Origin: Chiloscyllium plagiosum
Taxonomy: Eukaryota
Length of the DNA: 64,000 bases
Direction of reading: 5' to 3'
NCBI RefSeq assembly: GCF_004010195.1
Contig: NC_057718.1
Coordinates: forward strand, 66,898,179-66,962,178
Each line of letters opens with the position of its first letter. Positions within the stretch are counted from its first letter, which is position 1. The position numbers were made by a program, and so were the translations under genes. The notes below the pieces were generated by a model, which worked only from the letters and a program-made list of their open reading frames with translations, was not told where the DNA came from and ran no database searches. Of the stretch, positions 4,614 to 55,463 are shown one piece after another.

Positions 4614-4707
4614 AACCAATCTATAAGGGTGCAATATACGTTTGCTATTTTCAGGGCTCTTAGTCATATGATGTGTCTTGATTATGCTGCTCTTCAATTA
4701 CCTGAAG
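4614..4707 (+). CDS. Divergent HCN-family (HCN-like) channel, exon encoding pore helix and selectivity filter
   Basis: Pyrimidine tract plus CAG acceptor at 4611-4613, donor G|GTAAAA at 4708. Translates NQSIRVQYTFAIFRALSHMMCLDYAALQLPE(G), which aligns with HCN [29 protein letters not shown]. Starts in phase 0, ends in phase 1. Confidence 0.92.
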
Positions 4708-4794
4708 GTAAAAGTCATGTATCTTTAAATGTTTACATTATTAATCAAGACTTAAACAGATTGATTGTTTTTAATCTTTTGTTTTTATTGTAAA

Positions 4795-5565
4795 CATATG
4801 TATTTTGGAAAGGCAATTCAGGGCAGGAATTGTACACTGAATATTAAGGTTCTGGGAAGTGTTGCTGAAAAAAGAGATCTTGGAGAGCAGGTTCATAGTT
4901 CCTTGAAAGTGGACAGGTTAGTGAAGAAGGAGTTTGGTATGCTTGACTTTATTGGTCTGTGCATTGAGTGTAGATTTGGGAGGTCATGTTATAGCTATAA
5001 AAGACATTGGTTAGACCACTGTTGGAATAATGCAGTCAATTCTGGTCTCCCTGCTATAGGAAGGATGTTGTGAAATTTGAAAGAGTTCAGAAAAGATTTA
5101 CAAGAATGTTGCCAAGATTGGGGGGTTTGAGCCATAGGGAGAGTCTGAATAGGCTGGGGTTATTTTCCCTCAGGCATTGGAAGCTGAGGGGGCCTTTTGA
5201 AGTTTATAAAATCATAAAGGGTTTGAATAGGGTGACAGTAAAGGACTTTTCCTCCGTGTAGGAGAGTCCAAACCTAGAGGGCATGGGTTTAAGGTGAGAG
5301 GGAGAAGATTTCAAAGGGGCCTAATGGGCAACCTTTTAAAGCAGAGAGTGGTGCGCCTGTGGGATGAGCTGCCAGAAATAGCGGTGAAGGCTGTTACAAT
5401 TACAACATTTAAAATGCATCTGGATAGGTATATAAATAGGAAGGGTTTAGAGGGATATGGACCAATTGCTGACAAATGGGACTCGATTAATTTAGGATAT
5501 CTGGTCAGCATGGACAAGTTGCATCAAAGGGGCTGTTTCCATGCGGTACAACTCGATGACTCTAT
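4795..5565 (+). mobile_element. CR1 LINE 3' end, decayed
   Basis: Fragments FERVQKRFTRMLP..LNRLGLFSL and QRVVRLWDELP, typical of the CR1 ORF2 C-terminus; frameshifted. Confidence 0.9.
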
Positions 5566-5719
5566 ATAAACTGTCAAAGAAAATTCTTAACGAATCGTGT
5601 CTGGTCCTGGCAGCTGTTAATCTTATCAGATGATGCTTTGTGTGACATTTGTGCGATCATCACACTTGTGTAGCTCGGGAACTCTGCAGTGATATTGCAG
5701 TTAGGGTTAGACCATTCAG

Positions 5720-7695
5720 TTTCATAGATTCATACAGCGTAGTAAAGGTCCTTTGGCCCATTGAGTCTGCACCAACATAACTACCACTAAAGTTCACTAA
5801 TCCCAATTTTCTACAATTGTCCCATATCCTTGAATGCTATGATATTAGAAGTAATCATTCAAATATCTTTTAAAGATTGTAAGATTTCCAGCTTCCACTA
5901 CTTTCCCAGGCAGTGTCTTCCAGATTCTTAGCACCTGCTGAGTGAAAAGCTTTTTCCCAAATTCTTTCTGAATCTCTTTCTCCATACATTAAACTATGCC
6001 CTCTTGCAAGTGACCCCACAACCAACAGCTGCTGTCTATTCACCCTGTTCATACCCCTCATAATCTTATACACTTCAATCATGTCTCACCTCAGTCTTCT
6101 CTACTTTAAAGCAAACAATCCAAGCCTACCTGGTCTCTCCTTATAGCTCAATTTCTCTATCCCAGGCAACATCTGGTGAACCTCCTCTGTACTCCCTCCA
6201 GTGCACAGTGTACTCCAGTTGCGGCCTGATCAACGCTATGTAAAAGTCCAACATTACCTCCTTGCTCTTATACTTGTTATGACACAGGATAAAGCCTCCT
6301 GCTTAATTTAAACCAGCAACACAGAAAAGATTCATCCTATGCAGTAATCTGTGAAAATTCGAGAGGCCAAAAACTATTTAAAGTAAAAATTAACAACTTT
6401 ATTTCTTAAAGTATAACAGAGAATAATTAACTAGCAACTATTTACAACTCCTTCCTCTAACCTCTCTTTTACTTTCCCTTCTAGAAGACTAATCCGATAA
6501 AACCCCTGATTAAGATTTACTGAAAAATTCAAATTTTAGAACCAGCCAGTGGTCGAATCTTCTTGTTATTACTTCCTCTGTCAATTTGCTCTCCAGGTTG
6601 GTGTTGATGTTTTTCTCCTTCTCTAGACAGATACCTCTCAGAGAGTTCTGACTAGCAGCCTACATCTGTTGGTCTTTTGGCATTCTCCCCCAGCTGTTCA
6701 ATGTTTCCCGGTCTGATACCCCCAAAGCATCGGATTGAGTCATTGGCTTTTAATATTGCCATTATATTAAATTCAAACTTGATTGGAGTTTGTTTTTTTT
6801 TTGGTGGGTATAATTTATACTGATTGGTCTAATTCAAATTTGTTTTTGTCTCCAGGCAACCAGCTGCACTAGCTGCTGGATCAAAAGGTTACATTGTATC
6901 TTGTTATCTGTACCTTTCTTAAAGGTACAGTACACTCACATCTTCATAACATATTCTATGCCATGACTGATAAAAGCAAGTGTCCCAAAGGCTCTCAAAA
7001 GTATCCTATTCACATGCTTTGCCAATTTTAGGGATCTGTGAGTAATTACCCCAAGATCCCTCTTGGTCCTCTAAGCTTCCCAGTGTCTTGCCATTAATTT
7101 AATACTCCCTCATCTTGTTTGTTCTTCCAAAATGCATCACCATGCACTTATCAGAGTTATACACCATCTGCCACTGGTCTGCCCATCTAACCAACCCATC
7201 TACATCTTCCTGGAACCTACAACCATCTTCTTCACTACTAGCCACTCTACCAATCTTGGTGTTATCAGCAAATTTGCTTAACATGCCCCCCACATTTTCA
7301 TTTATATCATTTATGTATATAACAAACAATAAGGGTCCCCGTACTGATCCTTGTGGTATATACTGGACACTGGCCTCCAGTCATTCAAACAGCCTTCTAC
7401 CACTACCCTCTGTATCTTATTGCTAAGCTAGTTTCTGATCCATCTCACCAGTTTTCCTCAATTCCATATCCTATAACCTTCTCAATCAGTCTCCTGTGTG
7501 GGACCTTGTCAAAAGCATTGTTAAAGTCCATATAAACTACATCAACTGAACTTCCCTCATCTGCATACTTGATCACATTTCAAAAATTTGCAACAACTTT
7601 GTTAAGCATGACTTCTCTCTGACAAAGCCATGTTGACTATCCTGAATTAAGCCATGTCTTTCCAAGTGGGTATTAATTCACTCCTTTAGAATTTA
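5720..7695 (-). mobile_element. CR1 LINE (RT to 3' end), interrupted by a solo LTR
   Basis: Minus ORFs FVIYINDI..SKFADNTKIG and IEVYKIMRGMNRV. Confidence 0.88.
6275..6951. mobile_element. Solo LTR
   Basis: Termini TGTTATGA...TCATAACA form a perfect 8 bp inverted repeat. 4 bp TSD tact/tatt. The CR1 sequence resumes seamlessly on both sides. Confidence 0.8.
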
Positions 7696-7809
7696 ATAAT
7701 TCAAAACCTGATTTGAATTCCATTGATTAAAAACTGTCCTTAGTTTCTTTCTCAATTGTACAAAAAACCTAGCTACCAGTATTTATGTCAAGATGAATGC
7801 CATGATTAT

Positions 7810-10478
7810 GATGATGAACAGCCAGTTGTCATGTTGCACATAGGTACCAATGATATCGGTAAGAAACAGGATGAGGTCTTACAAGCAGAATTTAGGGAGT
7901 TAGAAGCCAAGTTAAAAAGTTGGGCCTCAGAGGTTTTAATCTCAGGATTGCTGCCAGTGCTATGTGCTAGTCAGAGTAGAAATGATAAAACAGGCAGGAT
8001 GAATGAGTGGCTTGAGAGATGGTGCAAAAGGAAGGGTTTCAGACGTTAGGGACATTGGGATCTGTTCTGGGGGAGGTGGGACTTTACAAATGGGATGGTC
8101 TACACTTGGGCAGAACTGGAATCAATCTCCTCGGGGGTGCTTTTGCGAGCACTGTTGGGGAGGGTTTAAACTATTGTGGCAGGAGGATGGGAACTAAATG
8201 AGGAGGTTAGTGGACAGTAAGGAGACAGTAACTAAAGCCTGTAAGGAACTAGATAATGAAGTCAGCTTGATTAAGGGGAAGAGTAGGCAGGGATCAGATG
8301 ATGAATGCTAAGGGACAGGTGGTCTGAGGTGCATTTGTTTTATGCAAGAAAATGCAGTAGGTAAGGCAGATGACCTTAAGGCTTGGATTAGTACCTGAGA
8401 GTATGATGTTATTGCTGTTACCGAGACTTGGTTGAGGGAAGGGCAAAATTGGCAACTAAATATCCCAGGATATAGATGCTTCAGGCGGAATAAAGGGGAG
8501 GTGGAGGAGTTGCATGACTGGTCAGAGAGGATATCACAGGTATGCTGATGAAGGGCACTATGGAGGACTTGAGCAGTGAGGCAATATGGGCAGAGCTCAG
8601 AAATAGGAAGGGTGCAGGCCTCCCAACAGTGATTGCGAGGTAGAGATACAAATATGTAAATAGACTATGGAAAAACGTAGGAGCAACGTAGGTGGTGGTG
8701 ATAGGAGATTTTAATTTTCCCAACATTGACTGGGATTCACTTAGTTTTAGAGGTCTAGATGGAGCAGAATTTGTAAGGAGCATCCAGGAGGGTTTTACAG
8801 AGTAGTATGTAAATCCTCAAACTCAGGAAGGGGCCACACTGGACCTGGTGTTGGGGAATGAGCCCAGCCTGTTGGTTGAAGTTGTGGTAGGAGATGATTT
8901 TGGAAATTGTGATCACAATTCCATAAGTTTTAGAATACTCATAGTCAAAGACGACAGTGGTCCAAAAGGAAGAGTGCTAAATTGGGGGAAGGCCAACAAT
9001 AGCAAAATTCGGCAGGAGTTGAGGAATATGGATTGGATGCAGTTGTTTGAGAGTAAATCGACATTTGATATGTGGGAAGCTTTTAAAGAGAGGTTGATTA
9101 GCGTGCAGGACAGACATGCCCATATGAAAATGCGGGATAGAAATGGCAAGATTAGGAAACCATAGATGACAGGTGAAATTGTGAGACTAGCTAAGAGGAA
9201 AAAGGAAGTATATATAAGGTCTAGGCGACTGAAGACATACGAAACTTTCGAAGAATATTGGGAAGGTAGGACCAATCTGAAACGAGGAATTAAGATGGCT
9301 AAAATGGATTATGAAATATCTGTAGCAAACAGGGTTAAGGAAAATCCCAAGGCCTTTTATTCACATATATGGAGCAAGAGGACAACTGGAGAAAGGGTTA
9401 GCCCACTCAAGGACAAAGGAGGGAAGTTATTTGTGGACTCAGAGAAAATAGGTGAGATTCTTATTGAGTGCTTTGCATCGTTATTCACCGAGGGACATGA
9501 TGGATGTTGAGGTTAGGGATAGATGTTTGATTACTCTTGGTAAAGTCAGCATAATGAGGGAGGAAGTGTTGGATATTGTAAAAGGCATTAAAGTAGACAT
9601 ATCCCCAGGACTGGATGGGATCTATCCCACGTTACTGAAGGAAGCAAGAGAGGAAATAGCTGGGGCCTTAACAGATATCTTTGCAGCATCCTTGAACATG
9701 TGTGAGGTCCCAGAGGACTGGAGAATTGCTAATTTTTACCCTTTGTTGAAGAAGGGTAGCAAGGATAATTCAGGTAATTATAGACCAGTGAGCCTGACAT
9801 CAGTGGTAGGGAAGCTGCTGGAGAAGATACTGAGGGATAGGATCTATTTACACTTGGAAGAAAATGGACTTATCAGTGATAGGCAGAATGGTTTTGTGCA
9901 GGGAATGTCATGTCTTACCAATTTATCAGAATTCTTTGAGGAAGTGACAAAGTTGATTGATGAGGCGAAGGGCTGAAGATGTCATATACATGGGCTTCAG
10001 TAAGGCGTTTGATAGAGTTCCCCATGGTAGGCTGATGGAGAAAGTGAAGTCGCTTGGGGTGCAGGGTGTACTAGTCAGATGGATAGAGAACTGGCTGGGC
10101 TGCAGGACACAGAGTGTAGTTGTGGAAGGAAGTTTCTCAAAATGGAGAACTGGGATCACTATTGTTTATGATATGCATAAATGATCTGGAGGAAGGTATA
10201 GGTGGTCTGATTATCATGTTTGCAGATGATACTAAGATTGGTGGAATAGCTGGGAGAATGCAGCAGAATGTAGATAGATTGGATAGTTGGGCGGAGACAT
10301 GACAGATGGAGATCAATTCCAACAAATGCAAGGTCATGCATTTTGGAAGATTCAATTCAAGAGCGGACTCTATGGTAATTGGAGAAGCTCTGGGTAAAAT
10401 TGGTGTACAGAGAGATCTGTGTGTTCAGGTCTATTGTTCCCTGAAGGTGGCAACGCAAGTCGATAGAGTGGTCAGGTA
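7810..10478 (+). mobile_element. CR1 LINE with ORF1 esterase end plus ORF2 APE and RT, decayed
   Basis: SGNH-type motifs VMLHIGTNDI and WDGLHL, endonuclease remnants (GDFN and DH motifs), RT NYRPVSLTSVVGKLLEKI, FSKAFDRVPH and FADDTK. Multiple stops and frameshifts. Confidence 0.92.
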
Positions 10479-10671
10479 AAGGCTGAGCCCCATCATCTCT
10501 GATTATATGTAGTCCTTTAAAAGATGGTCACTTAAGCCATTCCTGACCTTACATTGATGCCATCAGGGAAGAATCTTAAAGGCACTCTTTTTGATCTCAG
10601 TTTGATTCTATTTGCCACAGAAAGATTTGGACAACCTCTGCAATCACACTATCAATTCTAATTGGCCGTAT

Positions 10672-11290
10672 CAAAGAACAAAGAAAATTACAGCACAAGA
10701 ACAGGCCATTGGGTCCTCCAAGACGGCGCTAATCCAGATCCTCTATCTAAACCTGTTGCCTATTTTCTAAGGATCTGTATCCCTCTGCTCCCTGCCCATT
10801 CATGTATCTGTCTAGATACATCTTAAATGACACTATCGTGCCCGCCTCTGCTGGCAACATGTTCCAGGCATTCCACAACCCTCTGTGTAAAGAACATTCC
10901 ATGCATATCTCCATTAAACTTTTCCCCTCTCAACTTGAACTTGTGACCCCTCAATTGATCTCCCACTCTGGGAAAAAGCTTCTTGCTATCCACTTTGTCT
11001 ATACCCCTCATGATTTTGTAGATCTCAATCAGGTCCCCCCTCAACCTCCCTCTTTCTAATGAAAATAATGCTGATCTACTCAAACTCTCTTCATAGCTAG
11101 CGCCCTCCATACCAGGCAACATCCGAATGAACCTCCTCTGTACTGTCTCCAAAGCATTCACATCCTTTTGGTAATGTGGCAACCAGAACTGTATGCAGTA
11201 TTCCGAATGCTGCTAACCAAAATCCTATACAATTGTAACATGACCTGCCAACTCTTTTACTCAATATCCTGTCCAATGTAAGCATTCCAA
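10672..11290 (-). mobile_element. CR1 LINE 3' end
   Basis: Minus ORF LETVQRRFIRMLPG..RLRGDLIEIYKIMRG. Confidence 0.9.
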
Positions 11291-14200
11291 AACAAGAAAT
11301 AAAGTTATTCATTTTAAGAACTAATTCAAATTATTAAATCAGTTAAAATAATTTGAAATATGATTAATAACAATTTTTTATAAATGTTTTCAGATGGACA
11401 ACTTGTAATCAAAATTGATGCCATCTAACAATTGGTGAACAGTATGATTGGTGGTTCCATTTCCTAATCTCCAATTTTTCAATCCTTAGCTATCAGCTCC
11501 AGAAGCTTAATGTTCTTCAATGCTGGGTTGCTCTCTCTTATAGAAGGAATGCAAGAATATTCCCTTGCATAAAAAGAATTTATCAACTTGACTCACTTTT
11601 GTCTCAAAATCAAGAACTTGTGGATTCCGACACCATCTCAGTACTGAATTTAGATTGACAATTTAATGCAGTACTAATGAAATGCTGCATTTGAGATAAT
11701 GTAGGATAACCTGAATAAAACCTGATTGACACAGAAATTCACACCTGATCATTGTGTTGCAGGCAGAATGATAAATTTGTACTGCTTGCTACACATGATT
11801 GCTAGCACTACCCGCACTGTTCATTTGTTGTCAGTATCAGGGCCCAAAATCATTAGTTTCTTAAAGGCAATCTGCACTTTTTAAAGGGGAGTACATGTGG
11901 CTCTGGCTCGAAGATGTGTTATGAACTGAATATGATGGGAAACATTGAAGAATGGCCAATCATGCAAAATTGCATGCACTAAAACTTTCGGAAAGTGCTT
12001 TGGTGATCTTAATAAAACATTTTGAAAGGGGACATAATATCCTGAATCTGGAAAGCACTAACAGGCAGTGAGAAGACATTATGTTGGAATGCCTGGAATG
12101 CTGGAACATGAATGCAATGTCGCAAGAAGTTTTGTGCTCCCATAGAAGTTAATAAGATAAATTTTCAAAATGCATATTTCACTTGATTGCACCACTTAAC
12201 TTCTGCTCAATTCATTATACCTCATTACTCACCTACCAGCAATCTCTATCATTCAAGATCAGCTGTATTTCAGTTTATTTTACCATATTCTTTACTTTGA
12301 CTTCTCGGATGAAGCACTATTGTAGGCCTAGCATCCACAACTCTCATCATAACTGTGGCTAACCACCCATGACGGCCACATAATCCAAACATTTTTCAAG
12401 ACATTCAAGAAATCAATTGCTCTAATGTTTAAGAGAGACAGTGCCAAATAGTAAGCAGGTCCAACTAACTGGAGGAGGTCAAGATTCCAGAATGTTTTAC
12501 TATTCATGGAGGATAAATTCCTGGCCTTTCTGGTAAGTTATATCATAAAACAGTGATTGTTGTGGTGCTAATGTAATTAGTAATTAGGGTGTCACTCTGC
12601 AACAATACTTGACTTCTCTTATGTGGTGGGTAGGTGGGTGTTGATGACATATTTCTTCTGCCAGGTGGCATGGTCCCAGTTATGAAATATATTTCCTGCC
12701 TGTAGACCATTTAGATGGCTGTAACTCATTCCCTAAGTTGTCTGCCTTTTATCAGAATCCAATCAAAGTTTGGAAAATGGTCTCCTCATACTGGCGTTCT
12801 CCCTCATTAGGAGAACAGCTGTCATCGTGAACCCATCTTCAGCAATCCTTACTTCTGCCAAATGGTGGCTGGTAGAAGAGAAGGTTTAGCCTGTGAGGGT
12901 GATCAGATTAGGGGACATGCTGGATCGCAGACAGTGAGTTGGATGATGCTACACAAACTTGTACATTGTGCATCCATTAACCATCAGCTCCTGGCTGAAA
13001 GAATGCATTGCCATAAAAGTGGCGTTTGCCCCAATAGTACTCATGGAATTCAAAAGGCTCAAGCATGTGTTGAACTACTTTCTGAAATAAACCTGTTTGA
13101 ACAGAATTTCACATCGATTATTGGCCCCAAACACTCCTTTGCAAACCTGCACCTCATAATTTGACCTGTTTCACAAAAAATCGCTTAGTGCTATTCTGTC
13201 TGCTACAGAAGGGCTTCCTGTACAGATTGCTGTCAACACACTCCATTTCCTCACTCACATGGACCATCTAGGTATGTCATGGTATTTACTTATCATCTAG
13301 AGACTCTGTAGGAGTACTTCCCTTTCCCATTAGGAAATTTGACATGGAGAATGTTGCATACAGCAGTCCCTTGCAATAAAAGGTTAAGGTGGTTCATGAG
13401 GAGTCTATATTAATGTGTACACTGTGCACTATTTGGTAGCAGCTATTTTACTTCCTGAGGGGTTGCTGGTCAAATTTTCTTTTGTGTCTGTCTCACACTC
13501 CTAAACTTACGCACAGGGGATGTACAGATTGGAAGTCCTCCTTTCAAGTTTGCTCCTGGATCAGACCAAGGTGGCTATGACTGAGGTTAAACATTGGATG
13601 GTTGAGGGTGCATTCAACTTGGTTGCCCGCTCCCTATCTGCAGTTACTTGTATGTGTGCATATCCCTGGAGTGGGACCAAATATTGTCCATTGAAAAGCT
13701 TGAAAGCATCTGCAACTGGTGACACATAGCATATGGAATACATTATTACCATTGAAAATGATATTTATGTTTCAGTTTTGGAAGTTAACTTGAAGATTTG
13801 ATTTTTGTTACAATCTTCACTCAGTGAGTAGTTGCCCTTTAAATTAATTAATTTGGTTTAATTTAGTTCATCTACTTTTAAAAAAGAATTAAAAATATAT
13901 CCAGCATTGTGATATATTTTATTCTGAACAATGCAACCAACACCCAGACTGGATTTAACGTTGCGTAATATGCCGACTGGCCTTAAAGCTGACTGCTACA
14001 ACTGTTACATCTGATTTCTTTTCTCTGTAACGCAACACATTTGAACATTTTGCAGTGCTTTAATAGTTGCATAGTGCAAGCCTATCTGCAGAAGAAAATA
14101 TTTGAGATTTTGCGAAGTGACTTGCAACATTCATCTGCATACTCTGGTGTGTAGGCCTCAGGGAACTACTCAAATGCATTCTGCTTCTCTAATCTCTTGT

Positions 14201-21270: not shown

Positions 21271-21274
21271 ACTA

Positions 21275-21565: not shown

Positions 21566-21616
21566 CATAAATACAAGACTTTAAGCCAGGTAATGCACAA
21601 ATACAATTGTCCATTT

Positions 21617-37808: not shown

Positions 37809-37809
37809 G

Positions 37810-40361: not shown

Positions 40362-40429
40362 GAAATCAGAATGGCTGTAATGCACTTATTTCTAGAAAAG
40401 GTTTGCTTGGTAAGAAAGTGTATCAGGTA

Positions 40430-44679: not shown

Positions 44680-44955
44680 AGGGTGAGTCCCTGGCATGCA
44701 GACCAGGAGTGAAGCAAGGCCCCATTGCGGACTGAGGCAAGGCCTCGGTGCATGGACTGGAAGTGAGGTTCTGATGCACAGACTGATGGCAAGACTAGGC
44801 CTCAGCACGTGAATGAAAGTGAGGCCCCATTGCAGACTGGAGGCAAGTTCCCACCGCGTGGATTGGAGGCAAGGCCCCAGCAAGCAGACTGGAAGCGAGG
44901 CCCCTCTGTGGTATGGAGGTGATTCCCTGTCGCGGCCTGGAGGCAAGTTCCCAAC
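44680..44955. repeat. Degenerate tandem repeat (gaggcaaggcccc / gactggaggcaag units)
   Basis: Recurrent gactg(g)aggcaag, aggcccc and ggaagtgagg motifs at irregular spacing of about 20-30 bp. Confidence 0.55.
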
Positions 44956-46299: not shown

Positions 46300-46470
46300 G
46301 GTCAATAAAATGTGGAGCTGGAAAGACACAGCAGGTCAGACATCATCGGAGAAGCAGGAAAGTTGACACGAAATGTTGGGTTTCTTGCTCCTCCAATGCT
46401 GTCTGACCTGCTGCGCCTTTCCAGCTCCACATTTTATCAACTCTGACTTTCGGCATCTGCAATCCTTACT
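46300..46470. mobile_element. Short fold-back pLTR-derived element
   Basis: ataaaatgtggagctggaaag..cagcaggtcagaca is inverted to tgtctgacctgctg..ctttccagctccacattttat. Confidence 0.75.
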
Positions 46471-46724
46471 ATATCCAAAATCAACAGACATTACAGTTTG
46501 CCCCATTTTCCAACCAAATGCTGATATAATGACCACTGAACAGTCTAAGGCCAGATCTCCAGTTCTTTCTTTTGTTTTGTTTATTATAAGTGCTGTTTTC
46601 ACAGCTGTTTAGAAGCTTTGCTGTAGATGAGATAGAGCTAAGGGCTGTGTACGAATAGAGATTTGGCTGGCTTGAGGAATTGATTCGTCTATGGATTAGT
46701 GGTCAGTTATTGATAACAAGGTCC

Positions 46725-48575
46725 ACAAGATATAGGAGCAGAATTAGGCCATTAGGTCCATCAAGTCTGCTGCACTATTCAATCATGGCTAACATATGTC
46801 ATAATCCCATTCTCCTGCCTTCTCCCAGGAACACTTGGTCCCCTTACTAAACAAGAGCCTATTTCTGTCTTAAATACACTCAATGCCTTGACGTCCACAG
46901 CCTTCTGTGGCAATGAGTTCATCTTTTGGAGGGGGTGGGGTGTGGTTGGTGGTGGCGCTGGTGGTGTGGGGTACAGAAATTCCTCCTCATATCAATTCTA
47001 AAGAGTCATCTCTTCACTCTTGGCCTCTGCCCTCGGGTCCTAGTCTCTCCTATTATGGAAACATTTCCTCCATTTAGACTCTATCCAGGCCTTACAGTAT
47101 TGTGTTAGTTTCATTGTGATCCCTCTTCATTCTTCTAAACTCCATTGAGGACAGATGCAGGGTCCTCATCCAGTCTTCATATGACAAGAGCTTCATCCCC
47201 AGGATCAATCTTGTAAACATCTTCTGGATGTCCTCCATTGTAAGCAAACATTCCTTTGATACAGGGCCCAAAACTATTCACAATATTCCAAATGCAGTCT
47301 AACCAGAATCTTATAAAGCCTCAGCAATACATTCCTGTTCTTGTATTCTAGCCCTCTTGAAATGAATGCTAGCATTGCATTTGCCTTCTTGCCAACTGAA
47401 CCTACATGTTAGCCTGAGGAGTCCTTGCTCAGGAATCTCTTGAATCCCTTTGTGCTTCAGATTTCTGAGGCCTTAATCCATTTAGAAAATAGTCTACACC
47501 TCTATTTCTCCTATCATAGTGCATAACCTCACATTTTCCCACGTCATATTGCATCAGCCACTTCTTTGCCCACTCTCCTAGCCTGTCCAAGTCCTTCTGC
47601 AGCCTCCCTGCTTCCTCAACACTACCTTAACCTATCTTTGTATCATCTGCAAACGTAGCAACAATTCTCTCAGTTCCTTCGACCAGATTGTTAGCAAATA
47701 ATGTGGATAGTTGTGGTCCCAACACAACCTGCAGAACTCCACTAGTCAACAGCTGCCATGCTGATAAAGACATCTTTATTGCCACCCTCTGCCTTCCGCC
47801 AGTCAGACAATCCTATATCAATGCCAGTAATGTTTCCTTAATACCATCGGCTCTTGTGCAACATCTTGTCAAAGGTTTTCTGGAAATCTCAATAGATTAT
47901 GTCCACTGGTTTTCCTTTGTCTAACTTGCACATTACCTCCTTGAAGAATTCTAAGATTTGTCAGACATGACCTCTCCTTGACAAAGGCTTGCTGACTCCT
48001 CCTATTTTACCATGCATTTTTAAGTCCTCTGCAATCTCATCCTGAACCATGGACCCTAAAATCTTAACAAAGACTGAAGACAGGCTAACCAGCCTATAAT
48101 TTCATGTCTTCTACCTCACTCCCTTCTTAAACAGGTGTGTCACACTAGCCATTTTCCAGTTCTCTGGGACCCTCCCTGACACCAGTGAATCCTGAAAGAT
48201 CATCACCAATGTCTCCACAATGCCCTTAGCTATCTTCTTCAGAACTCTGAAACGTAGTCCATCTGGACTGGGTGATTTATACACCTTCAGACCTTTTACC
48301 TTGCCCAGCACCTTCTCCCTAGTGATGGGCACTACACTCACCTCTGCCACTTGAATTTCTGGTATGCTGCTGGTGATGAAAAGTATGTATTCAGTTACTC
48401 TTCCATTTCTTTGTTCCCCATTAATGCTTCATTTGTCTCATTTTCCAATGGTCCAATATTCACATTTGCCTCTCGCTTCTTCCCATTGTTGCTTTCTTAG
48501 TTATCCTCTGCTGGATTTTAGAGGTTTCTGAATCCTCTGGCTTCCCACTAATTTTCGCTACAATGTATAGTCCTT
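46725..48575 (-). mobile_element. CR1 LINE ORF2 to 3' end, decayed
   Basis: Minus ORF ITREKVLGKVKGLKVYKSPSPDGL..VPENWKMASVTHLFKKG. Confidence 0.85.
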
Positions 48576-48734
48576 CTGCCTGCCAACAACAATGTGATTG
48601 GCTCCCAGAAAACTGAATACTCTTGGGAGTGGGGTTGTTGAATGATTTGGCAGAAGCCATTGGACTTCTCAAAACAAAAGCATTGTGTTTTGCTCTGCAG
48701 TAAAAGCACCTCAAGCCTGATGATAGCCAGTTTA

Positions 48735-49510
48735 TGCTGCATTTTGGAAAGGCAAATCAGAGCAGGACTTAGACACATAATTGTAAGGTCCTGGGGAGTG
48801 TTGCTGAACAAAGAGACCTTTGAGTGCAGGTTCATTGTTCCTTGAAAGTGGATTCACAGGTAGATAGGATAGTGAAGAAGGTGTTTGGTATGCTTTCCTT
48901 TATTGTAGCATTGAGTGTAGGAGTTTCAATGTCATGTTGCGGCTATATAGGACATTGCTTAGGCCACTTATTAAATTGTGTACAATTCTGGTCTCCCCCC
49001 TATAGGAAGGATGTTGTGAAACTTGAAAGGGTTCAGAAAAAATTTACAAGGATGTTGCCAGGGTTGGAGGGTTTGAGCAACAGGGAGAGGCTGAATAGGC
49101 TGTGGCTGTTTTCCCTGCAGCGTTGGAGGCTGAGGGGTGACCTTATAGAGGTTTATAAAATCATGAGGGACATGGATGGAGTGAATAGACAAGATCTTTT
49201 CCCTGGGGTGGGGGAGTCCAGAACTAGAGGGCATAGGTTTAGGGTGAGAGGAGAAAAATTTAAAAAGGACCTGAGTGGCAACCTTTTCATGCAGAGGGTA
49301 GTGCATGTATGGAATCAGCTGCCAGAGGACGCTGGTACAATTGCAGCATTTAAAAGGCATCTGGATGGTTATATGAATAAGAAGGGTTTGGAGGGATATG
49401 GGCCAAGTGCTGGCAAATGGGACTAGATTAGGTTAGGATATCCAGTCAGCATGGATGAGTTGGACTGAAGGGTCAATTTCAATGCTGTATATCTCTATGA
49501 CTCCATGACT
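48735..49510 (+). mobile_element. CR1 LINE 3' end
   Basis: ORF 48824-49426 CVQFWSPPYRKDVVKLERVQKKFTRMLPGL..TRGHRF..VVHVWNQLP; ctatgact tail. Confidence 0.93.
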
Positions 49511-51380
49511 CTTATTTCGTTTTTCCACTTGCTGTAAGCTGTGACTTTTAATTGATAAGCCAAGAATCCATACGCCTGTGAACCTGTTACCCTGTGCATC
49601 CTACAAAAGAAGTGAAAGTATCTGGAGAAGAAAGACTGAAGCAGTGTTCTGTGTTTGTATGTATGTATGTTTTTGTGTATGTCTGTGTGTTTGTTTTAGT
49701 TATATGTTGACACTTTATACTTGTTTATCTATAGCTGGAATGTATTTATTTGTAATAAATAGGCATTCTTATTAAGTACAGAAACCTGTTCCATGCATTC
49801 ATTCGGCCTGTATCTAAGAGACAAAAAGAGAATTCAACATACTTCTTACGATCTTTCACATTTATGACGATTCTGGGAATATCAGAGCTTGATTTGGAGC
49901 ATGCTATCCCAGTAAGGCGTAACACCAGGACCAGATGAGATGCAACCAAAGCTTCTGCTGTGCTGTTCTGTTTAAATATACCAGGAAAAACAAGATTCAC
50001 AATATCAAATCCTGGGGAAACTCTACTACAAGTCTTCTTTCAAATAAATAGTCATTCATGTTAAATACAGAAACCTGTACTTTATATGTGGAAAGTGAAG
50101 AGTACTAGCAATTATCTTTCAATCTTCCCTGGATTCATGGGTGGTGCTAGAAGATTGTAAACAATCATACCCTTGTTCAAACTTTTGTTAGGATCAACTC
50201 AGATATTACAGGCCAGTTTATTTAATGTCAGTGTCATAGAGTCATGGAGATGCATTTCAAGGCATCCAGCACTTCCTCTTCTGTAATATGGACATTTTGC
50301 AAAGTGTCACACAACTTCTAGAAACTATTATTTGGGATAGAATTCATGGAATATATGGATTGATCTGGAAAAGTCATCATGGATTTGTGAAATGAAAATT
50401 GTGTCCAACTAACTCACTGAAGTTTTTTGAATAGGTAACAGAGAGGGTTGATGAATGGAGGCCATTCATGTGGTATACTTGTACTTCTAAAATGTTGATA
50501 CAAAATTGCCTGACTCTTCTGACTCTGACTGCGTCCATGCTGATTCTTCTTAATCAATTCATATTTTTCCATGTAACTATGAATTCCATCCCAAATAATA
50601 CTCAAGTTAAACTGACTGGTCTGTAATTTCTGAGTTGAGTGTAGGATAGGAAGTGGAGTATAATAATTAATGGGTATTTTACATTCAGGAAGAAAACTTG
50701 TTTCCCTCAGAGTTGATATTGGGAGTCTTGCTTTTCCTGTTATATTAACATAGAACATTACAGCACAGGAATGAATCCTCCGGCCCATGATGTTAAGCCG
50801 AGCATTTCATCAAATTAAACTAATCCATTCCGCTTGCCTTTGCTCCACATCCCTCCGTTCCTTGCTTATCTAAAGGTGCTTATCTAAAAGTCCCTTAAAT
50901 GCTTTTATCATATCAGCATCCACCACCACCCCTGGCAGCACGTTCCAGACTCCTGCCACTCTCTGTGTAAAAAGCTTGCCTGTCACATCTCCTTGGAACT
51001 TCCCCCCTCTCACCTTAAATGCATACCCCCTAGTATTAGACATTTCAACTCTGGGAAAATATTCTGACCTTCAACCCTATCAATGCATCTTATAATTTTA
51101 TAGACTTCAATCAAGTCTCCCCTCAGCCTTTGCTGCTCCACAGAAAACAACCTGAGTTTCTGTAGCCTCTCTTTATAGTTCATACCCTCTAATCCAGGCA
51201 GCATTCTGGTAAATCTCTTCTGCACCCTCTCCAAAGCCTCCACATTCTTCTTGTAATGTGATGACCAGAAGTATGGGGTCTAATCAAAGTCTAATAAAGC
51301 TGCAGCATAACATTCTAACACTTGTAATCAGTACCCCGACCAATAAAAGTAAGCATGCTATATGCCTTCTTTACCACCCT

Positions 51381-51600
51381 GGGGAGAAAGTGAGGTCTGC
51401 GGATGCTGGAGATCAGAGCTGAAAATGTGTTGCTGGAAAAGCGCAGCAGGTCAGGCAGCATCCAGGGAACAGGAGAATCGACGTTTCGGGCATAAGCCCG
51501 TCTTCAGGAAAATGAAGAAGGGCTTATGCCTGAAACATCGATTCTCCTGTTCCCTGGATGCTGCCTGACCTGCTGCGCTTTTCCAGCAACACATTTTCAG
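51381..51600. mobile_element. Short fold-back Penelope pLTR-derived insert
   Basis: Hairpin centred near 51510. Perfect 15 bp TSD cttctttaccaccct at 51366-51380 and 51601-51615. Confidence 0.88.
51480..51507 (-). ncRNA. Minimal hammerhead ribozyme motif (PLE type)
   Basis: Minus strand CTGAAGA-C-GGGC-TTAT-GCCC-GAAA-CG-TC. Confidence 0.65.
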
Positions 51601-52008
51601 CTTCTTTACCACCCTATCTATTTGATTTAGGTCTTGGTGGGTGTGGTTGAGTATGAATCCATGGATTAGACGCTTCATTATGAAGGAAGATTGATAGATT
51701 TGAGACTGTTTTCCTTGGATAGGAGAAGGCTCTAGGGGAGTTTACAGAACTTTTCAAAATCATGATTGTAAATGTCTCACAAATTAGAAGGCACACTTTA
51801 AAAGTGTTTTTCAAAAGAACATATGTGAGGTAAATAAGAAAGAACCTTTTTCACACAGTGAGCAGTTGGCATATGGAATGCATTACCTGGAAGTGTGATG
51901 GAGGTATATTCATTTGAGGCATTGAAGAAGGCATTGGGTGATTACATAAATAGATATATTGTACAACTAAACGTGGAAAAGGCAGGAGATTGGCACTTTC
52001 TTTATTCA

Positions 52009-52103
52009 GGTGAAAGTGAGGTCTGCAGATGCTGGAGATCAGAGCTGAAAATGTGTCAGGCAGCATCCAGGGAACAGGAGAATCGACGTTTCGGGCATAA
52101 GCC
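52009..52103 (-). mobile_element. Truncated pLTR-only insert
   Basis: Same terminus gaaagtgaggtctgcagatgctgg. 13 bp TSD ctttctttattca at 51996-52008 and 52104-52116. Confidence 0.8.
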
Positions 52104-53069
52104 CTTTCTTTATTCATTCAAGGGATGTGGACATCATTGGCTATTCCAGCATTTATTGCCCATCCCTAAAGCCATGGAAAACACGATGGTGAGCTGCCCT
52201 CTTTTACCTCTCCAATCCTTAGAACACGCACAATGCTGTGGGAAAGAGAGTTTCAAGATTTTCAATGAAGGAACAGTAATATGTTTCCAAAACAGCATGT
52301 TATTTGACTTGTTCAGAAAGCTGATGCAGGCATGATGGGCTAAATGACCTCCTTCTGGTCAATAACAATTTTACAATGCTGTGACCACTTCAGGGCATGG
52401 GGAATCATTTAAGCCTAACTGTAAGGGGAGCATTTGTAACTACTTAGAGAGGTTGGGATCTTATCTTATTTTGTGTGTTAGACCCTGCATCCAGGGATGT
52501 GATAGTGTATTACAGAACAAATCTTCCGGTTTGCCTCCAATGTAGGAAAAATCAGCCAGTCCTTTTATGAAATCTCCAATTCTTTGTAATCTACTGACTG
52601 TCAAGGACTCAATGGCGGCAGCTAATGCATTTCTAGCAGAATCAATTTTGCACTTCCTCCTTCATTACGATACAATGCTTTAGAAGCAACCATTCACTGT
52701 ATGGTTCTCTGCTTGCCATAACACTCCTGTAGTACTATAGTGACCTGAATTATTTTTCTTCATTGATAACTGCAGGATGATGTTCATATGTGTATGCTGA
52801 GCGTGCCTAATATCAATTGATAATTCAAAGAAAGCTCTGTTGTTTATCAATCCCTTCCCAATCCAAGGAATACATTAGGTAGATTGACTGTCTACTATAA
52901 TAAGTGTTCTTCCAGTCCTGCTTTCTGTATTTAACCCTCTAACTTGTGAATGATGTTGCCCTTGATGACTGTTCCTCAGCTTTACTGTAGAACTTCTCTG
53001 AGTTTCAAGTAATTGTGGGAATTTGGGGACGTGGGATGGTGGTGCCATTTGGAGAGAGATTAATTCCTT

Positions 53070-53513
53070 CTTAGTTCATCCTGCAAGTGTCGCTAGTCCA
53101 CACAGTATGGCAAAGTTATTTATGCCTAAATTGTATTCCATAACTACCATCTTTATTATTCCCTGCCATAGCCACATCTCAGACTGAACGTAACTAAGTT
53201 GTCCTAATTGGACCTGAGATGAGTTTCCAAACCCACATTTTCTCCATCATCACACATACTTGCTTCTTTCTTGTAAATATTGACTATGTTCCTTAGTTCA
53301 TCCTGCAAGTGTCTCTAGTCCACAGAGTATGGCAAAGTTATTCATGCCTAAATTGTATTCCATAACTACCATCTTTATTATTCCCTGCCATAGCCACATC
53401 TCAGGCTGAACGTAACTAAGTTGTCCTAATTGGACCTGAGATGAGTTTCCAAACCCACATTTTCTCCATCATCACACATACTTGCTTCTTTCTTGTAAAT
53501 ATTGACTATGTTC
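53070..53513. repeat. Tandem duplication, 2 x 222 bp
   Basis: 53070-53291 is repeated at 53292-53513; four substitutions seen by eye. Confidence 0.93.
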
Positions 53514-53519
53514 CTCCCT

Positions 53520-54180
53520 CATGCCTTAAAAATATTTAATGACTCTGCTTCTATTCCTTCCTGGGAAGAGATTTCTTCAGAATTATGACATTTGGAAAAA
53601 TATCCTGATGTTCTTAAAGGAAGACACCTTATTTTTAAACATTGTCTCCTACGTCTAATTTGCCCACAAAAGGAAGCATCCTTTTAGCATCAACCCTATT
53701 AAATCTCCCCAGGGTTTATATGCTTCAACAAGACTACCTCCCATTCTTCTAAACTCCAATGGATACAGGCACCAACCTGTCCAACCTTTCTTCATAGGAT
53801 AACTCCCTCATCCCAGGAATCAATTGAGTGAAACAGTTCTGAACTGCATCTAAAGCAGCTATGTCCTTTCTTAAATAAGCAGATCATAATTGTGCACTGC
53901 AGTGTAGATGTGGTCTCATCAATATCTGTTACAACTGTAGCAAAACATCCCTTCTCTTTGTTCCATTCCCCTTGCAATAAATGCCAATATTTCATTTGCC
54001 TTCCTAATCATTTGCTGTACTTGGATACAACTTTTATAATCATTCATGTACATGGACACATAGGACTCTCTGAATCCTGTGATCTCTCGCTACTGAAATG
54101 ATTGACATGACGAATAAAAAAGCAGCCCAAGTAGGCAAGTTTATCTTTCCCACTTTGTATTCCATTCTCCAAATTATTTT
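53520..54180 (-). mobile_element. Old CR1 LINE 3' end
   Basis: Decayed reverse-complement CR1 C-terminal motifs. Confidence 0.7.
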
Positions 54181-54529
54181 ACCAACTTAATTTAAAATTT
54201 TAAAATTGTCATCCTTATGTTCAAAATTGTTCCATCTCTTAATTTACTTCATCTTTACAAACCTCAAGATCTTTGAGCTCCCCCATTTCTGGATTGTTAC
54301 ACATTCCCAATTTCCTGTGTGCTCATATCTTCAGGTTTAGGTGTTTAGCTTTTAGGTGTAAACTCTGGAATTCTTACCTTAAACTACAACACCTCTCCAC
54401 CTTATCTCCTATAATCTGCTACTTTGAACCACCTTCAACATTTAACACCTGCCCTAATATATCTATGTGGTCCTGTGAGAGTAGTTGTCAGTCATTGTTT
54501 CTGTAAAGTATTTTCAGACCTTCTATTTT

Positions 54530-55005
54530 TTTTCTTCTGTTTTTTTAATAAACCCCCACATTACTGCCAAACAGTGACAGTGCTTATTTTTCCCCAGCAG
54601 CTACATCATGTATGTGCAGGTGTAGGACACAGTGAAAAAAACGAGTGCAGTAAAACTTTATTCATATTCCACCACTAGGAAGAAAAGAAACACATGAATG
54701 GCCAGTGACAAGCAGTGCCCTTCTTGTCGAAGGGCAATGCCTAAGTGATCAAAAATGTGAAGGGGAGGACAGAATTCAAATCAAAATAGAATTGGAGATG
54801 GAAATAAAACACTCCACATCCTGCAATGCCTGCCTCCCCCTGAAAAGCTTGAGGGTTTTGGTAGACACTGCGTGCTCCTTCTCCAGGGACACCTGGGCCC
54901 GAATGTAACCGCGAAAGAGGGGCAGACAATCAGCCATAACAACCATCTCCACAGCCCGCTGCCTGGATCTGATAATGACCAGCTTGGCCAGGCCCAGGAG
55001 CAGTT
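54530..55005 (-). mobile_element. Tx1/L1-clade LINE 3' end
   Basis: Minus strand reads LLLGLAKLVIIRSRQRAVEMVVMADCLPLFRGYIRAQVSLEKEHAVS, like the Tx1 ORF2 C-terminus, then a 3' UTR and A-rich tail. Confidence 0.7.
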
Positions 55006-55225
55006 TTCAAACCTTCTATTATGTTAACATCATTATATGAATGAAATTTATTGTTAATTAGAAGTGACTTCATACACTACCAAGTTATATAGACACATCA
55101 TTTTCAAGCCAACAATGGATTGACAATAAAAACAGCTATCCCAGTGCCACCTCCATCCTGAGACCAAACAAAAAAAAACATTGTTTGACAGGAGATTACA
55201 TAATTGTTTTTATTGTGTGCTCTAG

Positions 55226-55463
55226 GAAGTAATCCATCATAACTGCAGCAGTCTAGTAGCCAACGCTCCCTTTTTCAAGGATTGTGATCAGAACTTCATG
55301 ATTGCATTGCTCAGTAAACTGAAATTTCACATTGCTCAAAGTGGTGAGGTCCTCTTCCATGAAGGTGCAGTTGGGAACTATATGTTATTTATTGAGAGAG
55401 GTACAATGCTTATGGAGAGACATAACATTTCAAAGAAGTTGACTGACGGAGCATTCTTGGGAG
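55226..55463 (+). CDS. HCN-like channel, exon encoding end of C-linker and N-terminal half of CNBD
   Basis: CTCTAG acceptor, G|GTAGGT donor, 238 nt, phase 0/1. Translates EVIHHNCSSLVANAPFFKDCDQNFMIALLSKLKFHIAQSGEVLFHEGAVGNYMLFIERGTMLMERHNISKKLTDGAFLG, matching HCN [59 protein letters not shown]...KLTDGSYFG. Confidence 0.94.

What the first reader, a model, noticed from the sequence alone, without database searches (positions are those of the whole stretch)
4614..55463. Intact four-exon reading frame of a non-canonical HCN-like gene hidden in 51 kb of repeats
Seen: exons of 94, 128, 147 and 238 nt with canonical splice sites and compatible phases give 202 codons with no stop, across introns of 19,537, 14,429 and 16,277 nt. 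The peptide is collinear with HCN1 but differs at many positions where HCN1-4 are nearly identical to each other. Inference: this is not HCN1-4 but a separate, apparently functional lineage. If it is orthologous to teleost HCNL channels, that family would date back to the jawed-vertebrate ancestor. The diagnostic S4 segment (an Arg-to-Met gap in zebrafish HCNL1) lies upstream of this window, so the assignment cannot be made here.
Basis: partly seen in the sequence, partly recalled or inferred. Interest (0 to 1): 0.85.

Follow-up and report, generated by a model that had tools for sequence, protein, structure and literature searches.

The report
Shark HCN-like channel, HCNL sister lineage
These are four real exons of an intact shark gene for a pacemaker-type (HCN family) ion channel that lacks the usual potassium filter and belongs to an old sister branch of the fish proton channels HCNL1/2, which places this odd channel group in the first jawed vertebrates.

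Summary
Exons at 4614-4707, 24245-24372, 38802-38948 and 55226-55463 (+) all have AG/GT borders and give 202 codons with no stop.

They are exons 6-9 of a 10-exon, 552-codon, stop-free gene spanning 301 kb of a 3.56-Gb shark genome.

Two IQ-TREE trees place the gene outside HCN1-4, in a jawed-vertebrate-wide "clade B" (100/100). Named members are skate, gars, teleosts, coelacanth and a salamander. Clade B is sister (100/99) to "clade A", which holds zebrafish HCNL1.

It is not the HCNL1/2 orthologue:
- An AU test rejects that grouping (p 4e-5).
- The same genome has its own clade-A gene on another contig.
- The upstream S4 exon has Lys, not Met, at the diagnostic third position.

A and B share a phase-1 intron between filter and S6. 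Three canonical paralogues in this genome lack it.

Unusual features:
- The filter reads CLDYA instead of CIGYG.
- The S2 charge-transfer Phe is Ser.
- S4 position 8 is Asn.
- The pore and S6 are strongly conserved among sharks and skates.

Expression could not be tested.

An earlier scan note (e1-7393634) describes a different filter-less HCN-like gene elsewhere. No earlier window resembles this protein.

The parts
4614..4707 (+). Coding exon 6 of 10 (94 nt, ends in phase 1): end of the S5-pore linker, the pore helix and the selectivity-filter position, reading ...FRALSHMMCLDYAALQLPE
   Evidence: AG/GT borders and frame. tblastn to shark and skate relatives. Best-scoring splice choice. Filter aligned to hHCN1 C358-G362.
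24245..24372 (+). Coding exon 7 (128 nt): S6 and the start of the C-linker (..EIWILNLSMLTGSIMYALLLAQVTAMV..DSSRRVYREK)
   Evidence: A 27-residue S6 stretch is identical in all 5 cartilaginous-fish sequences compared.
38802..38948 (+). Coding exon 8 (147 nt, 49 codons): C-linker
   Evidence: Identity is 82-94% to three relatives.
55226..55463 (+). Coding exon 9 (238 nt): end of the C-linker and first part of the cyclic-nucleotide-binding domain, up to ..DGAFLG
   Evidence: Weak Pfam cNMP_binding match below the curated cut-off (E 0.0017, 18.7 bits against 27.5). 90% identity to P0002-P0004.
4708..24244 (+). Intron 6 (19,537 nt, phase 1). It lies between the filter and S6, is shared with the clade-A gene of the same genome, and is absent from canonical HCN paralogues. 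It carries retroelement remains.
   Evidence: RVT_1 fragment at 9452-9973 (+). YIDD-bearing open frame at 21907-23580 (-).
24373..38801 (+). Intron 7 (14,429 nt), with a reverse-transcriptase fragment at 30450-31430 (-)
38949..55225 (+). Intron 8 (16,277 nt), with a 222-nt unit repeated twice at 53070-53515
1..4613 (+). 3' end of intron 5 (15,656 nt in all). The S5 exon lies upstream of the window.
   Evidence: No further exon match in the window.
55464..64000 (+). First 8.5 kb of intron 9 (144,205 nt in all). The last coding exon lies 136 kb beyond the window end.

Best explanation
The window holds exons 6-9 (pore helix to first half of the cyclic-nucleotide-binding domain) of an intact 10-exon shark gene. 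The gene encodes a 552-residue HCN-family channel subunit. It belongs to a jawed-vertebrate-wide paralogue group that I call clade B. Named members are skate, gars, teleosts, coelacanth and a salamander. Clade B is the sister of the group containing the zebrafish proton channel HCNL1 (clade A). The two together are separate from HCN1-4. This placement is shown. How the protein works is inferred. It keeps a full HCN-type voltage sensor: S4 is basic at positions 1-4, 6, 7 and 9, with the usual Ser at position 5. It also keeps the S6 gate region, the C-linker, and a cyclic-nucleotide-binding domain with its phosphate-binding Arg. I therefore expect a tetrameric, voltage-gated, probably hyperpolarisation-activated channel. 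Its central pore cannot be the canonical K+/Na+ pacemaker pore, because the filter reads C-L-D-Y-A instead of C-I-G-Y-G. The filter and S6 are among the best-conserved parts of the protein across sharks and skates, and bony-fish clade-B members conserve Asn at the same filter position. My preferred mechanism (about 0.4) is therefore a retained but re-tuned central pore with a ring of four acidic side chains, giving non-K+-selective conduction that may be permeable to or blocked by divalent ions. The main alternatives are conduction through the voltage sensor and a silent modulatory subunit.
For: Gene and frame:
- 8 of 8 canonical splice dinucleotides and 202 stop-free codons in the window.
- All 9 introns are GT-AG, with an ATG start, a stop codon and 552 codons, after locating the other 6 exons on the same contig.

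Family:
- The orthologue P0075 matches human HCN1 structures at E 1.5e-129 over residues 49-548.

Placement:
- FastTree of 142 rows and two careful IQ-TREE runs agree. The runs used 60 rows x 487 columns and 53 rows x 489 columns with named HCN1-4.
- Supports: canonical clade 100/99-100, clade A 100/99, clade B 100/100, A+B 100/99-100.
- Inside each of A and B the cartilaginous, ray-finned and lobe-finned/amphibian groups separate as in the species tree.
- The AU test rejects cartilaginous-B plus A as one clade (delta lnL 47.6, p 4.35e-5).

Independent character:
- The window gene and the clade-A gene on C12 both have a 94-nt pore exon ending in a phase-1 intron at the same aligned codon.
- 3 of 3 canonical paralogues examined in this genome read pore helix, CIGYG and S6 in one open exon.

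Constraint:
- S6 is 27 of 27 identical and HMMCLDY 7 of 7 identical in 5 cartilaginous-fish sequences.
- Identity to a skate is 75-83% across every core region from S1 through the first part of the cyclic-nucleotide-binding domain, against 46% in the N-terminus.
- HMMTLNYGS is identical in 6 of 6 gar and teleost clade-B rows.

Cyclic-nucleotide-binding domain: the Arg equivalent to hHCN1 R549 is kept, in ..DEKREVTV...
Against: - No expression or splicing evidence was obtained (see Tried and rejected).
- dN/dS was not computed, because no orthologue DNA was available.
- In canonical HCN channels, changes to the GYG motif give non-conducting, dominant-negative subunits. This is stated in Wobig 2020 (passages read). 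By that analogy a Gly-to-Asp filter argues against my preferred conducting-pore mechanism.
- The residue after the phosphate-binding Arg is Glu instead of Thr, so cyclic-nucleotide binding is uncertain.
- A and B are both long-branched (stems 0.5), so their union could in principle be long-branch attraction. The shared intron argues against that, but it was checked in one genome only.
- The tree rows were hand-picked from the 248 and 355 proteins held, and isoforms and fragments were dropped.
Confidence: 0.8

Rival explanations
1. Voltage-sensor (gating-pore) conductor. The central pore is plugged, as in zebrafish HCNL1, and ions or protons pass through the voltage-sensing domain. The path would be opened in a different way from HCNL1: by loss of the S2 hydrophobic plug rather than by an S4 Arg-to-Met gap.
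For: - The S2 residue aligned with hHCN1 F186, the charge-transfer centre or hydrophobic plug (PMC6904216, passages read), is Ser in the window species and Ala, Thr, Ala in the 3 other cartilaginous clade-B rows.
- That residue is Phe in 13 of 13 canonical rows and 11 of 11 other clade-B rows, and Phe or Tyr in 8 of 8 clade-A rows.
- S4 position 8 (hHCN1 R273) is Asn or Ser in 5 of 5 cartilaginous clade-B sequences.
- The filter lacks the first Gly.
- The sister clade contains a proven voltage-sensor proton channel (PMC7306766).
Against: - The diagnostic third S4 position is Lys.
- R273 seems to lie inside the charge-transfer centre in both states. This is inferred from PMC6904216, where only R267 and R270 cross it. 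A neutral residue there would then not sit in the constriction.
- The filter and S6 are strongly conserved, unlike the variable, partly deleted pore of HCNL1.
Confidence: 0.25
2. Silent or modulatory subunit. The protein conducts nothing by itself. It co-assembles with canonical HCN subunits, or with the clade-A protein, and tunes or suppresses their current.
For: GYG changes in canonical HCN give non-conducting, dominant-negative subunits (Wobig 2020, passage read). S6, C-linker and the assembly-relevant regions are well conserved.
Against: There is no evidence of co-expression or co-assembly. A conserved non-Gly residue at the same filter position in two old lineages (Asp in cartilaginous fish, Asn in gars and teleosts) suggests the altered filter itself is used.
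Confidence: 0.2
3. It is the direct orthologue of teleost HCNL1/2.
For: It shares the loss of CIGYG, and it groups with HCNL1 against HCN1-4.
Against: - The AU test rejects it (p 4.35e-5).
- A separate clade-A gene exists in the same genome and in Callorhinchus.
- S4 position 3 is Lys.
- The cyclic-nucleotide-binding Arg is kept here, whereas Wobig 2020 says it is not conserved in HCNL1 (supplement legend read).
Confidence: 0.04
4. Decaying pseudogene, or a fast-evolving copy of a canonical HCN gene that is misplaced by long-branch attraction.
For: The branches are long. No RNA evidence was obtained.
Against: - 10 exons with 552 codons and no stop, and 9 of 9 canonical introns, across 301 kb.
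- Intact orthologues in at least 4 other cartilaginous-fish records.
- Conservation differs by domain.
- The intron shared with clade A is absent from 3 of 3 canonical paralogues.
Confidence: 0.03

Closest known systems
Zebrafish HCNL1 (QKM75727, P0222), the hyperpolarisation-activated proton channel of Wobig et al. 2020 (PMC7306766)
   Same: An HCN-derived six-helix subunit with C-linker and cyclic-nucleotide-binding domain. The CIGYG filter is lost. It belongs to the same A+B super-clade (100/99). In this shark, the A and B genes share a phase-1 intron between filter and S6.
   Different: It is the sister paralogue, not the orthologue. S4 position 3 is Lys, not Met. The pore and S6 are strongly conserved rather than degenerate. 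The cyclic-nucleotide-binding Arg is kept. The S2 plug Phe is lost here but kept in HCNL1.
Canonical HCN1-4 pacemaker channels (human HCN1 structures 5U6O and 6UQG)
   Same: The overall architecture aligns end to end (E 1.5e-129 for the orthologue). The S4 Ser at position 5, the S6 end ..DSSRR.Y.EK, and exon borders such as the 147-nt C-linker exon are kept.
   Different: Only 43-44% identity over the 202 residues. The filter is CLDYA. F186 is replaced by Ser, R273 by Asn and T550 by Glu. There is an extra intron. It lies outside the HCN1-4 clade.
Predicted 'HCN1-like / 2-like / 4-like' proteins of other cartilaginous fishes: XP_032880942 (Amblyraja), and XP_055495961, XP_038664312 and UPI00398E46DC (organisms not shown in the calls)
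   Same: These are orthologues, 78-91% identical over the window's 202 residues. They have the same filter and the same S4 pattern.
   Different: They are automatic gene predictions named after canonical HCNs. In my searches none was described as a separate lineage.
Gar and teleost clade-B proteins (Lepisosteus XP_015208558, Electrophorus XP_026879744, Alosa XP_041952030, Engraulis XP_063079225)
   Same: Same orthology group (clade B, 100/100). They carry a non-Gly residue at the first filter Gly.
   Different: The filter is TLNYG rather than CLDYA/G. The S2 Phe is kept. S4 position 8 is basic in gars, Electrophorus and one unnamed row. Alosa and Engraulis instead have a neutral residue at S4 position 4.

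Membership tests
HCN family (metazoan hyperpolarisation-activated CNBD channels) | Six-helix voltage-gated architecture with a long S4 of basic residues at every third position, interrupted by Ser, followed by a C-linker and a cyclic-nucleotide-binding domain | tested here: met
   The full gene model gives S4 = SRLVRLIKLTRIMSLLRLLRFSNLMRY. The orthologue aligns to human HCN1 residues 98-592 at E 1.5e-129. It nests within metazoan HCNs in the trees.
Canonical vertebrate HCN1-4 | CIGYG selectivity filter | tested here: not met
   The window reads CLDYA at the aligned positions. 13 of 13 canonical rows read CIGYG.
Canonical vertebrate HCN1-4 | Placement inside the HCN1-4 clade | tested here: not met
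   The canonical clade, with named HCN1, 2, 3 and 4 and a lamprey row, has 100/99 support and excludes the window gene.
HCNL1/HCNL2 (Wobig et al. 2020) | Methionine interrupting the S4 arginine series at the third position (M169 in zebrafish HCNL1) | tested here: not met
   The S4 exon of this gene (locus L013, upstream of the window) has Lys at that position, as do the 4 other cartilaginous clade-B sequences. The definition was read in PMC7306766.
HCNL1/HCNL2 (Wobig et al. 2020) | Canonical CIGYG motif absent | tested here: met
   CLDYA. The paper's motifs are WPFLE or WISTK for HCNL1 and A/Q-I/L-SYG for HCNL2.
HCNL1/HCNL2 (Wobig et al. 2020) | Phylogenetic membership of the clade containing zebrafish HCNL1 | tested here: not met
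   It is the sister clade. The AU test rejects joining it (p 4.35e-5). Zebrafish HCNL2 itself could not be identified, because Table S1 of the paper is a picture.
HCNL1/HCNL2 (Wobig et al. 2020) | Proton-selective current through the voltage sensor, insensitive to cyclic nucleotides | not testable with these tools
   This needs electrophysiology.
HCN-like super-clade (clades A+B as defined here) | Monophyly against HCN1-4, and a shared phase-1 intron between filter and S6 | tested here: met
   Support is 100/100 and 100/99. The intron is present in the window gene and in the C12 clade-A gene, which has the same 94-nt exon and phase. It is absent in 3 of 3 canonical paralogues of the same genome. 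The intron was checked in this genome only.

The most novel reading that the evidence does not exclude
Cartilaginous fishes carry a second, independently built 'voltage-sensor pore' channel. In this reading the clade-B protein keeps all the outer S4 charges but has lost the S2 hydrophobic plug (Phe to Ser, Ala or Thr) and the K+ filter. When hyperpolarisation brings the S4 serine to the constriction, a water- or proton-conducting path would open through the sensor. Alternatively, the Asp ring in the conserved filter would make the central pore a hyperpolarisation-activated, divalent-permeable pore. Either way it would be a naturally occurring HCN-type channel with a conduction mode not yet described, in marine animals. 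That would undercut the idea that HCN-like channels arose as a freshwater adaptation.
Probability: 0.25. Interest if true: 0.8.

Novelty: new variant of a known kind. Interest (0 to 1): 0.55.

Why it matters
HCN-like channels were described in 2020 as a fish subfamily of two members, HCNL1 and HCNL2. They were interpreted as an adaptation of sperm to low-sodium fresh water (PMC7306766, abstract and passages read).

The evidence here changes that picture:
- The HCN-like branch is older and wider. It has two paralogues, A and B, that both predate the split of cartilaginous and bony vertebrates.
- Both survive in marine sharks and in amphibians. Named examples are Ascaphus in A and Ambystoma in B.
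- The window's gene represents the paralogue I did not find described in four full-text searches.

Clade B offers natural variants at three textbook positions of voltage-gated channels: the first filter glycine, the S2 charge-transfer phenylalanine and an inner S4 arginine. Each can be tested by simple reversion mutants.

None of this is shown functionally. The predicted proteins are already in public databases under misleading 'HCN1-like' names, so the value lies in classification and hypothesis, not in a new kind of molecule.

Tried and rejected
- RNA evidence: no RNA holder was listed for exon 9. The 6 runs holding it, from 2 studies, are of unrecorded kind. The single read-laying run returned nothing, so the splice junctions remain untested.
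- Table S1 of Wobig 2020 (species list, HCNL2 accessions) is a picture in the supplement and could not be read. I therefore cannot say whether the authors' 49 'fish' orthologues included gar, elephant-shark or clade-B sequences, or which of my rows is HCNL2.
- An 'hcn5' search gave no relevant paper among the 15 of 22 hits listed. A 2026 preprint on ion-channel evolution mentions HCN only as a family under selection.
- A 15-residue match, in another frame, at window 4604-4648 to the protein's own S1-S2 loop (E 0.11) is 29 of 45 nt identical to that exon. By my own estimate that is chance level, so I rejected it as an exon relic.
- Scan notes: nothing near this place, and no look-alike window by sequence.
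- Pfam on single exons gives only a weak, sub-threshold cNMP_binding match on exon 9. Short exons are uninformative for this test.
- The idea that S4 position 8 (Asn) acts as an HCNL-like gap is down-weighted. Only R267 and R270 are reported to cross the charge-transfer centre.

Full report
**Observation**

Each is bordered by AG and GT. Joined, they read 202 codons without a stop, while the other two frames are full of stops. tblastn of four related proteins against the window finds exactly these four pieces (E 1e-13 to 5e-41) and nothing else below E 0.1. In an alignment with 13 canonical HCN sequences, 140 of the 202 columns are invariant among the canonical ones. The window peptide differs at 73 of those 140.

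**The whole gene**

- The window is G000:C9:66898179-66962178 of a 3.56-Gb genome.
- Searching that genome with the closest full-length relative (P0009) found six more exon matches on the same contig and strand.
- After fetching them, choosing for each junction the splice pair that best matches the orthologue P0075 gives canonical GT-AG sites at all 9 introns.
- The result is a 10-exon coding sequence of 552 codons, with an ATG, a stop codon and no internal stop. It spans C9:66,796,854-67,098,052, about 301 kb.
- The window carries exons 6-9. The last intron is 144,205 nt.

**Relatives**

- Exon 9 alone retrieves proteins predicted in other cartilaginous fishes and named 'HCN1-like', '2-like' or '4-like'.
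- Over the 202 residues, identity is 90.6% and 87.6% to two shark records, 78-80% to skates (one named Amblyraja), 48.5% to gar, 49.8% to Latimeria, and 43-44% to canonical HCNs.
- The orthologue P0075 aligns to human HCN1 structures over residues 98-592 at E 1.5e-129. I used that alignment to count human HCN1 residue numbers.

**Phylogeny**

I collected sequences from two word-based searches and one exhaustive HMMER search.

- A FastTree of 142 rows and two careful IQ-TREE runs under LG+C20+F+G4 agree.
- The first careful run used 60 hand-picked rows x 487 columns.
- The second used 53 rows x 489 columns, with the full 10-exon product and named HCN1, 2, 3 and 4.
- The canonical HCN1-4 clade, including a lamprey row and whale-shark HCN2 and HCN4, has 100/99 support and excludes the window gene.
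- The window gene lies with the shark and skate records (100/100) inside a 16-17-row clade B (100/100). Clade B also holds Lepisosteus, Atractosteus, Electrophorus, Alosa, Engraulis, Latimeria, Ambystoma and 5 rows without organism names.
- Its sister (A+B 100/99-100) is an 8-row clade A (100/99). Clade A holds zebrafish HCNL1 (QKM75727, 'hyperpolarization-activated channel selective for protons'), Acipenser, Callorhinchus, Ascaphus and 4 unnamed rows.
- Within both A and B, the cartilaginous, ray-finned and lobe-finned/amphibian groups separate as in the species tree. The A/B duplication therefore predates the jawed-vertebrate radiation.
- Forcing the cartilaginous clade-B rows together with clade A costs 47.6 log-likelihood units, and the AU test rejects it (p 4.35e-5).
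- I dropped 17 isoforms and fragments, and I chose subsets by hand.

**A second gene and a shared intron**

- The same shark genome has a separate clade-A gene on contig C12 (48.74-48.85 Mb). It was found with the Callorhinchus protein.
- Its exons read S4 = SKFLRFLYFGRIVSLVQLLQVSSLMRR and pore ..HTLGNSYGT...
- In that gene the pore exon can be 94 nt long. It ends in a phase-1 intron at the codon aligned with the one split in the window gene, whose exon is also 94 nt and phase 1.
- In three canonical HCN paralogues of this genome (contigs C1, C40, C31), the pore helix, CIGYG, S6 and ..LDSSRRQYQEK lie in one uninterrupted open exon.
- This intron is a character independent of the tree. It unites A and B against HCN1-4 and argues against long-branch attraction. 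I checked it in this genome only.

**The diagnostic S4 segment**

Wobig et al. define HCNL1/2 by a Met at the third of up to eight or nine regularly spaced S4 positions, M169 in zebrafish (PMC7306766, passages read). The S4 exon of the window's gene lies 29 kb upstream of the window. It reads SRLVRLIKLTRIMSLLRLLRFSNLMRY. The positions are:

| S4 position | 1 | 2 | 3 | 4 | 5 | 6 | 7 | 8 | 9 |
|---|---|---|---|---|---|---|---|---|---|
| Window gene | R | R | K | R | S | R | R | N | R |

- There is no gap at position 3, so this defining feature is not met.
- Clade A does carry a hydrophobic residue there. It is Met in Danio and one unnamed row, Leu in Acipenser, and Tyr in Callorhinchus, one unnamed row and this shark's C12 gene.
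- The HCNL-type sensor therefore also goes back to the jawed-vertebrate ancestor, but in the other paralogue.

**What is unusual in the protein**

1. The filter reads C-L-D-Y-A, against C358-I-G-Y-G362 in human HCN1. HMMCLDY is identical in 5 of 5 cartilaginous sequences. The next residue is Gly in two sharks, and Ala in the window species and two skates.
2. The S2 residue aligned with F186 is the charge-transfer centre or hydrophobic plug (PMC6904216, passages read). It is Ser here and Ala, Thr, Ala in the three other cartilaginous rows. It is Phe in 13 of 13 canonical rows and 11 of 11 other clade-B rows, and Phe or Tyr in 8 of 8 clade-A rows.
3. S4 position 8 (R273) is Asn or Ser in 5 of 5 cartilaginous sequences.
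4. In the cyclic-nucleotide-binding domain, the Arg aligned with R549 is kept but the next residue is Glu instead of Thr.

- The pore module is not decaying. A 27-residue S6 stretch is identical in all five cartilaginous sequences.
- Identity between the window species and a skate is 75-83% across every core region from S1 through the first part of the cyclic-nucleotide-binding domain. It is 46% in the N-terminus.
- Gar and teleost clade-B proteins keep HMMTLNYGS unchanged in 6 of 6 rows.
- Latimeria, Ambystoma and one unnamed row keep GYG, and one unnamed row has GYA.

**Mechanism (inferred, not shown)**

The intact sensor, S6 gate region, C-linker and cyclic-nucleotide-binding domain point to a tetrameric voltage-gated channel of the HCN type. 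The filter excludes a canonical K+/Na+ pacemaker pore. I weigh three readings.

- **A retained, re-tuned central pore with an acidic ring (about 0.4).** It is favoured by the strong conservation of the filter and S6, and by the parallel Asn in ray-finned fishes.
- **Conduction through the voltage sensor (about 0.25).** It is favoured by the lost Phe plug and by the sister clade's biology. Against it are the Lys at position 3 and the conserved pore. In addition, only R267 and R270 are reported to cross the charge-transfer centre, so position 8 probably never sits in the constriction.
- **A silent modulatory subunit (about 0.2).** This is by analogy with dominant-negative GYG mutants cited by Wobig et al..

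A resemblance of L-D/N in this filter to the T-x-D/E-x-W filters of CatSper and bacterial sodium and calcium channels is recalled from memory. It is only a lead.

**What is known**

- The library searches for HCNL1, HCNL2/HCNL3/HCN-like, hcn5, and HCN phylogeny with cartilaginous fish returned the 2020 discovery paper, a zinc-block paper, a herring paper that assigns HCNL2 to herring sperm (passages read), and reviews.
- None describes a third lineage or non-fish members. Wobig et al. report '49 ortholog genes, all from fish'.
- Their Table S1 is a picture and could not be read, so overlap with my rows is unknown.
- In the profile search, the 13 proteins scoring above the canonical plateau (about 624 bits) were all from cartilaginous fish, ray-finned fish, coelacanth or amphibians, or from unnamed records. 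No listed amniote protein scored in that range.
- That search scored only 8,000 candidates and listed 120 of 800 hits, so this is weak evidence for loss in amniotes.

**Not obtained**

Expression and splicing evidence are missing. No RNA holder was listed, and the one read-laying run returned nothing. dN/dS, synteny and function are also missing.

**Verdict**

This is a real, intact gene and a correct call that it is not HCN1-4. It is a member of an ancient sister lineage of HCNL1/2 rather than their orthologue. Its filter and voltage sensor carry distinctive changes that are worth testing.

Noticed in passing
G000:C12:48742031-48846673 (loci L015, L023, L024, L027-L032): The same shark genome carries a clade-A (HCNL-type) gene. 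Its S4 has Tyr at position 3, Gln at positions 6 and 7, and Ser at position 8 (SKFLRFLYFGRIVSLVQLLQVSSLMRR). This is far fewer charges than the two other cartilaginous clade-A sequences (Callorhinchus and one unnamed row). Its pore reads GNSYG. No stop was seen inside the exon matches aligned.
   Followed up: partly
window 21907-23580 (-), 30450-31430 (-), 9452-9973 (+): The introns hold decayed retroelement pieces. There are two Pfam RVT_1 matches (E 3.8e-15 and 2.5e-7). There is also a long, stop-interrupted frame with ..FLRYIDDCIGA.. and ..LQFTWTISNTSLPFLDLSI.. but no Pfam hit. It lies in a G-rich, strongly skewed stretch (22-24 kb: GC 0.54, skew +0.48). Earlier scan notes report Penelope-like elements filling introns in this genome. 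I did not classify these copies.
   Followed up: partly
window 4604-4648 (+), frame +2 relative to exon 6: The acceptor region of exon 6, read in another frame, gives FYTEPIYKGAIYVCY. This resembles the protein's own S1-S2 loop FFTEPIYTGGIWISY (tblastn E 0.11), with 29 of 45 nt identical to that exon. By my estimate this is within chance for a 64-kb window.
   Followed up: yes
window 53070-53515 and 29677-29840: Two short tandem duplications sit inside introns: a 222-nt unit x 2.0 at 98% identity, and an 80-nt unit x 2.1 at 92%.
   Followed up: no
Proteins P0032 (Alosa) and P0129 (Engraulis): The clupeiform clade-B proteins sit on a very long shared branch (1.0-1.1). They have a neutral residue (Asn or Ile) at S4 position 4, and the cyclic-nucleotide-binding Arg is replaced by His (..KHY.., ..KHN..). 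This may be a separate route to an S4 gap. The herring paper assigns 'HCNL2' to herring sperm, but I could not tell which gene that is.
   Followed up: no
G000:C1:90078098-90079249, C15:1922011-1923180, C6:99871401-99872414, C6:117922771-117923772: Four single open frames of 426-505 residues match the channel core (transmembrane region to cyclic-nucleotide-binding domain) at 25-26% identity without stops. They are probably the large exons of other CNBD-family channel genes. They were not examined.
   Followed up: no
Proteins P0103, P0121, P0146, P0156 (unnamed representatives): A well-supported group of unnamed HCN-like proteins branches just outside the (canonical HCN + A+B) clade in both careful trees. 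One member (P0146) has a GIGYG filter. Their organisms are unknown.
   Followed up: no
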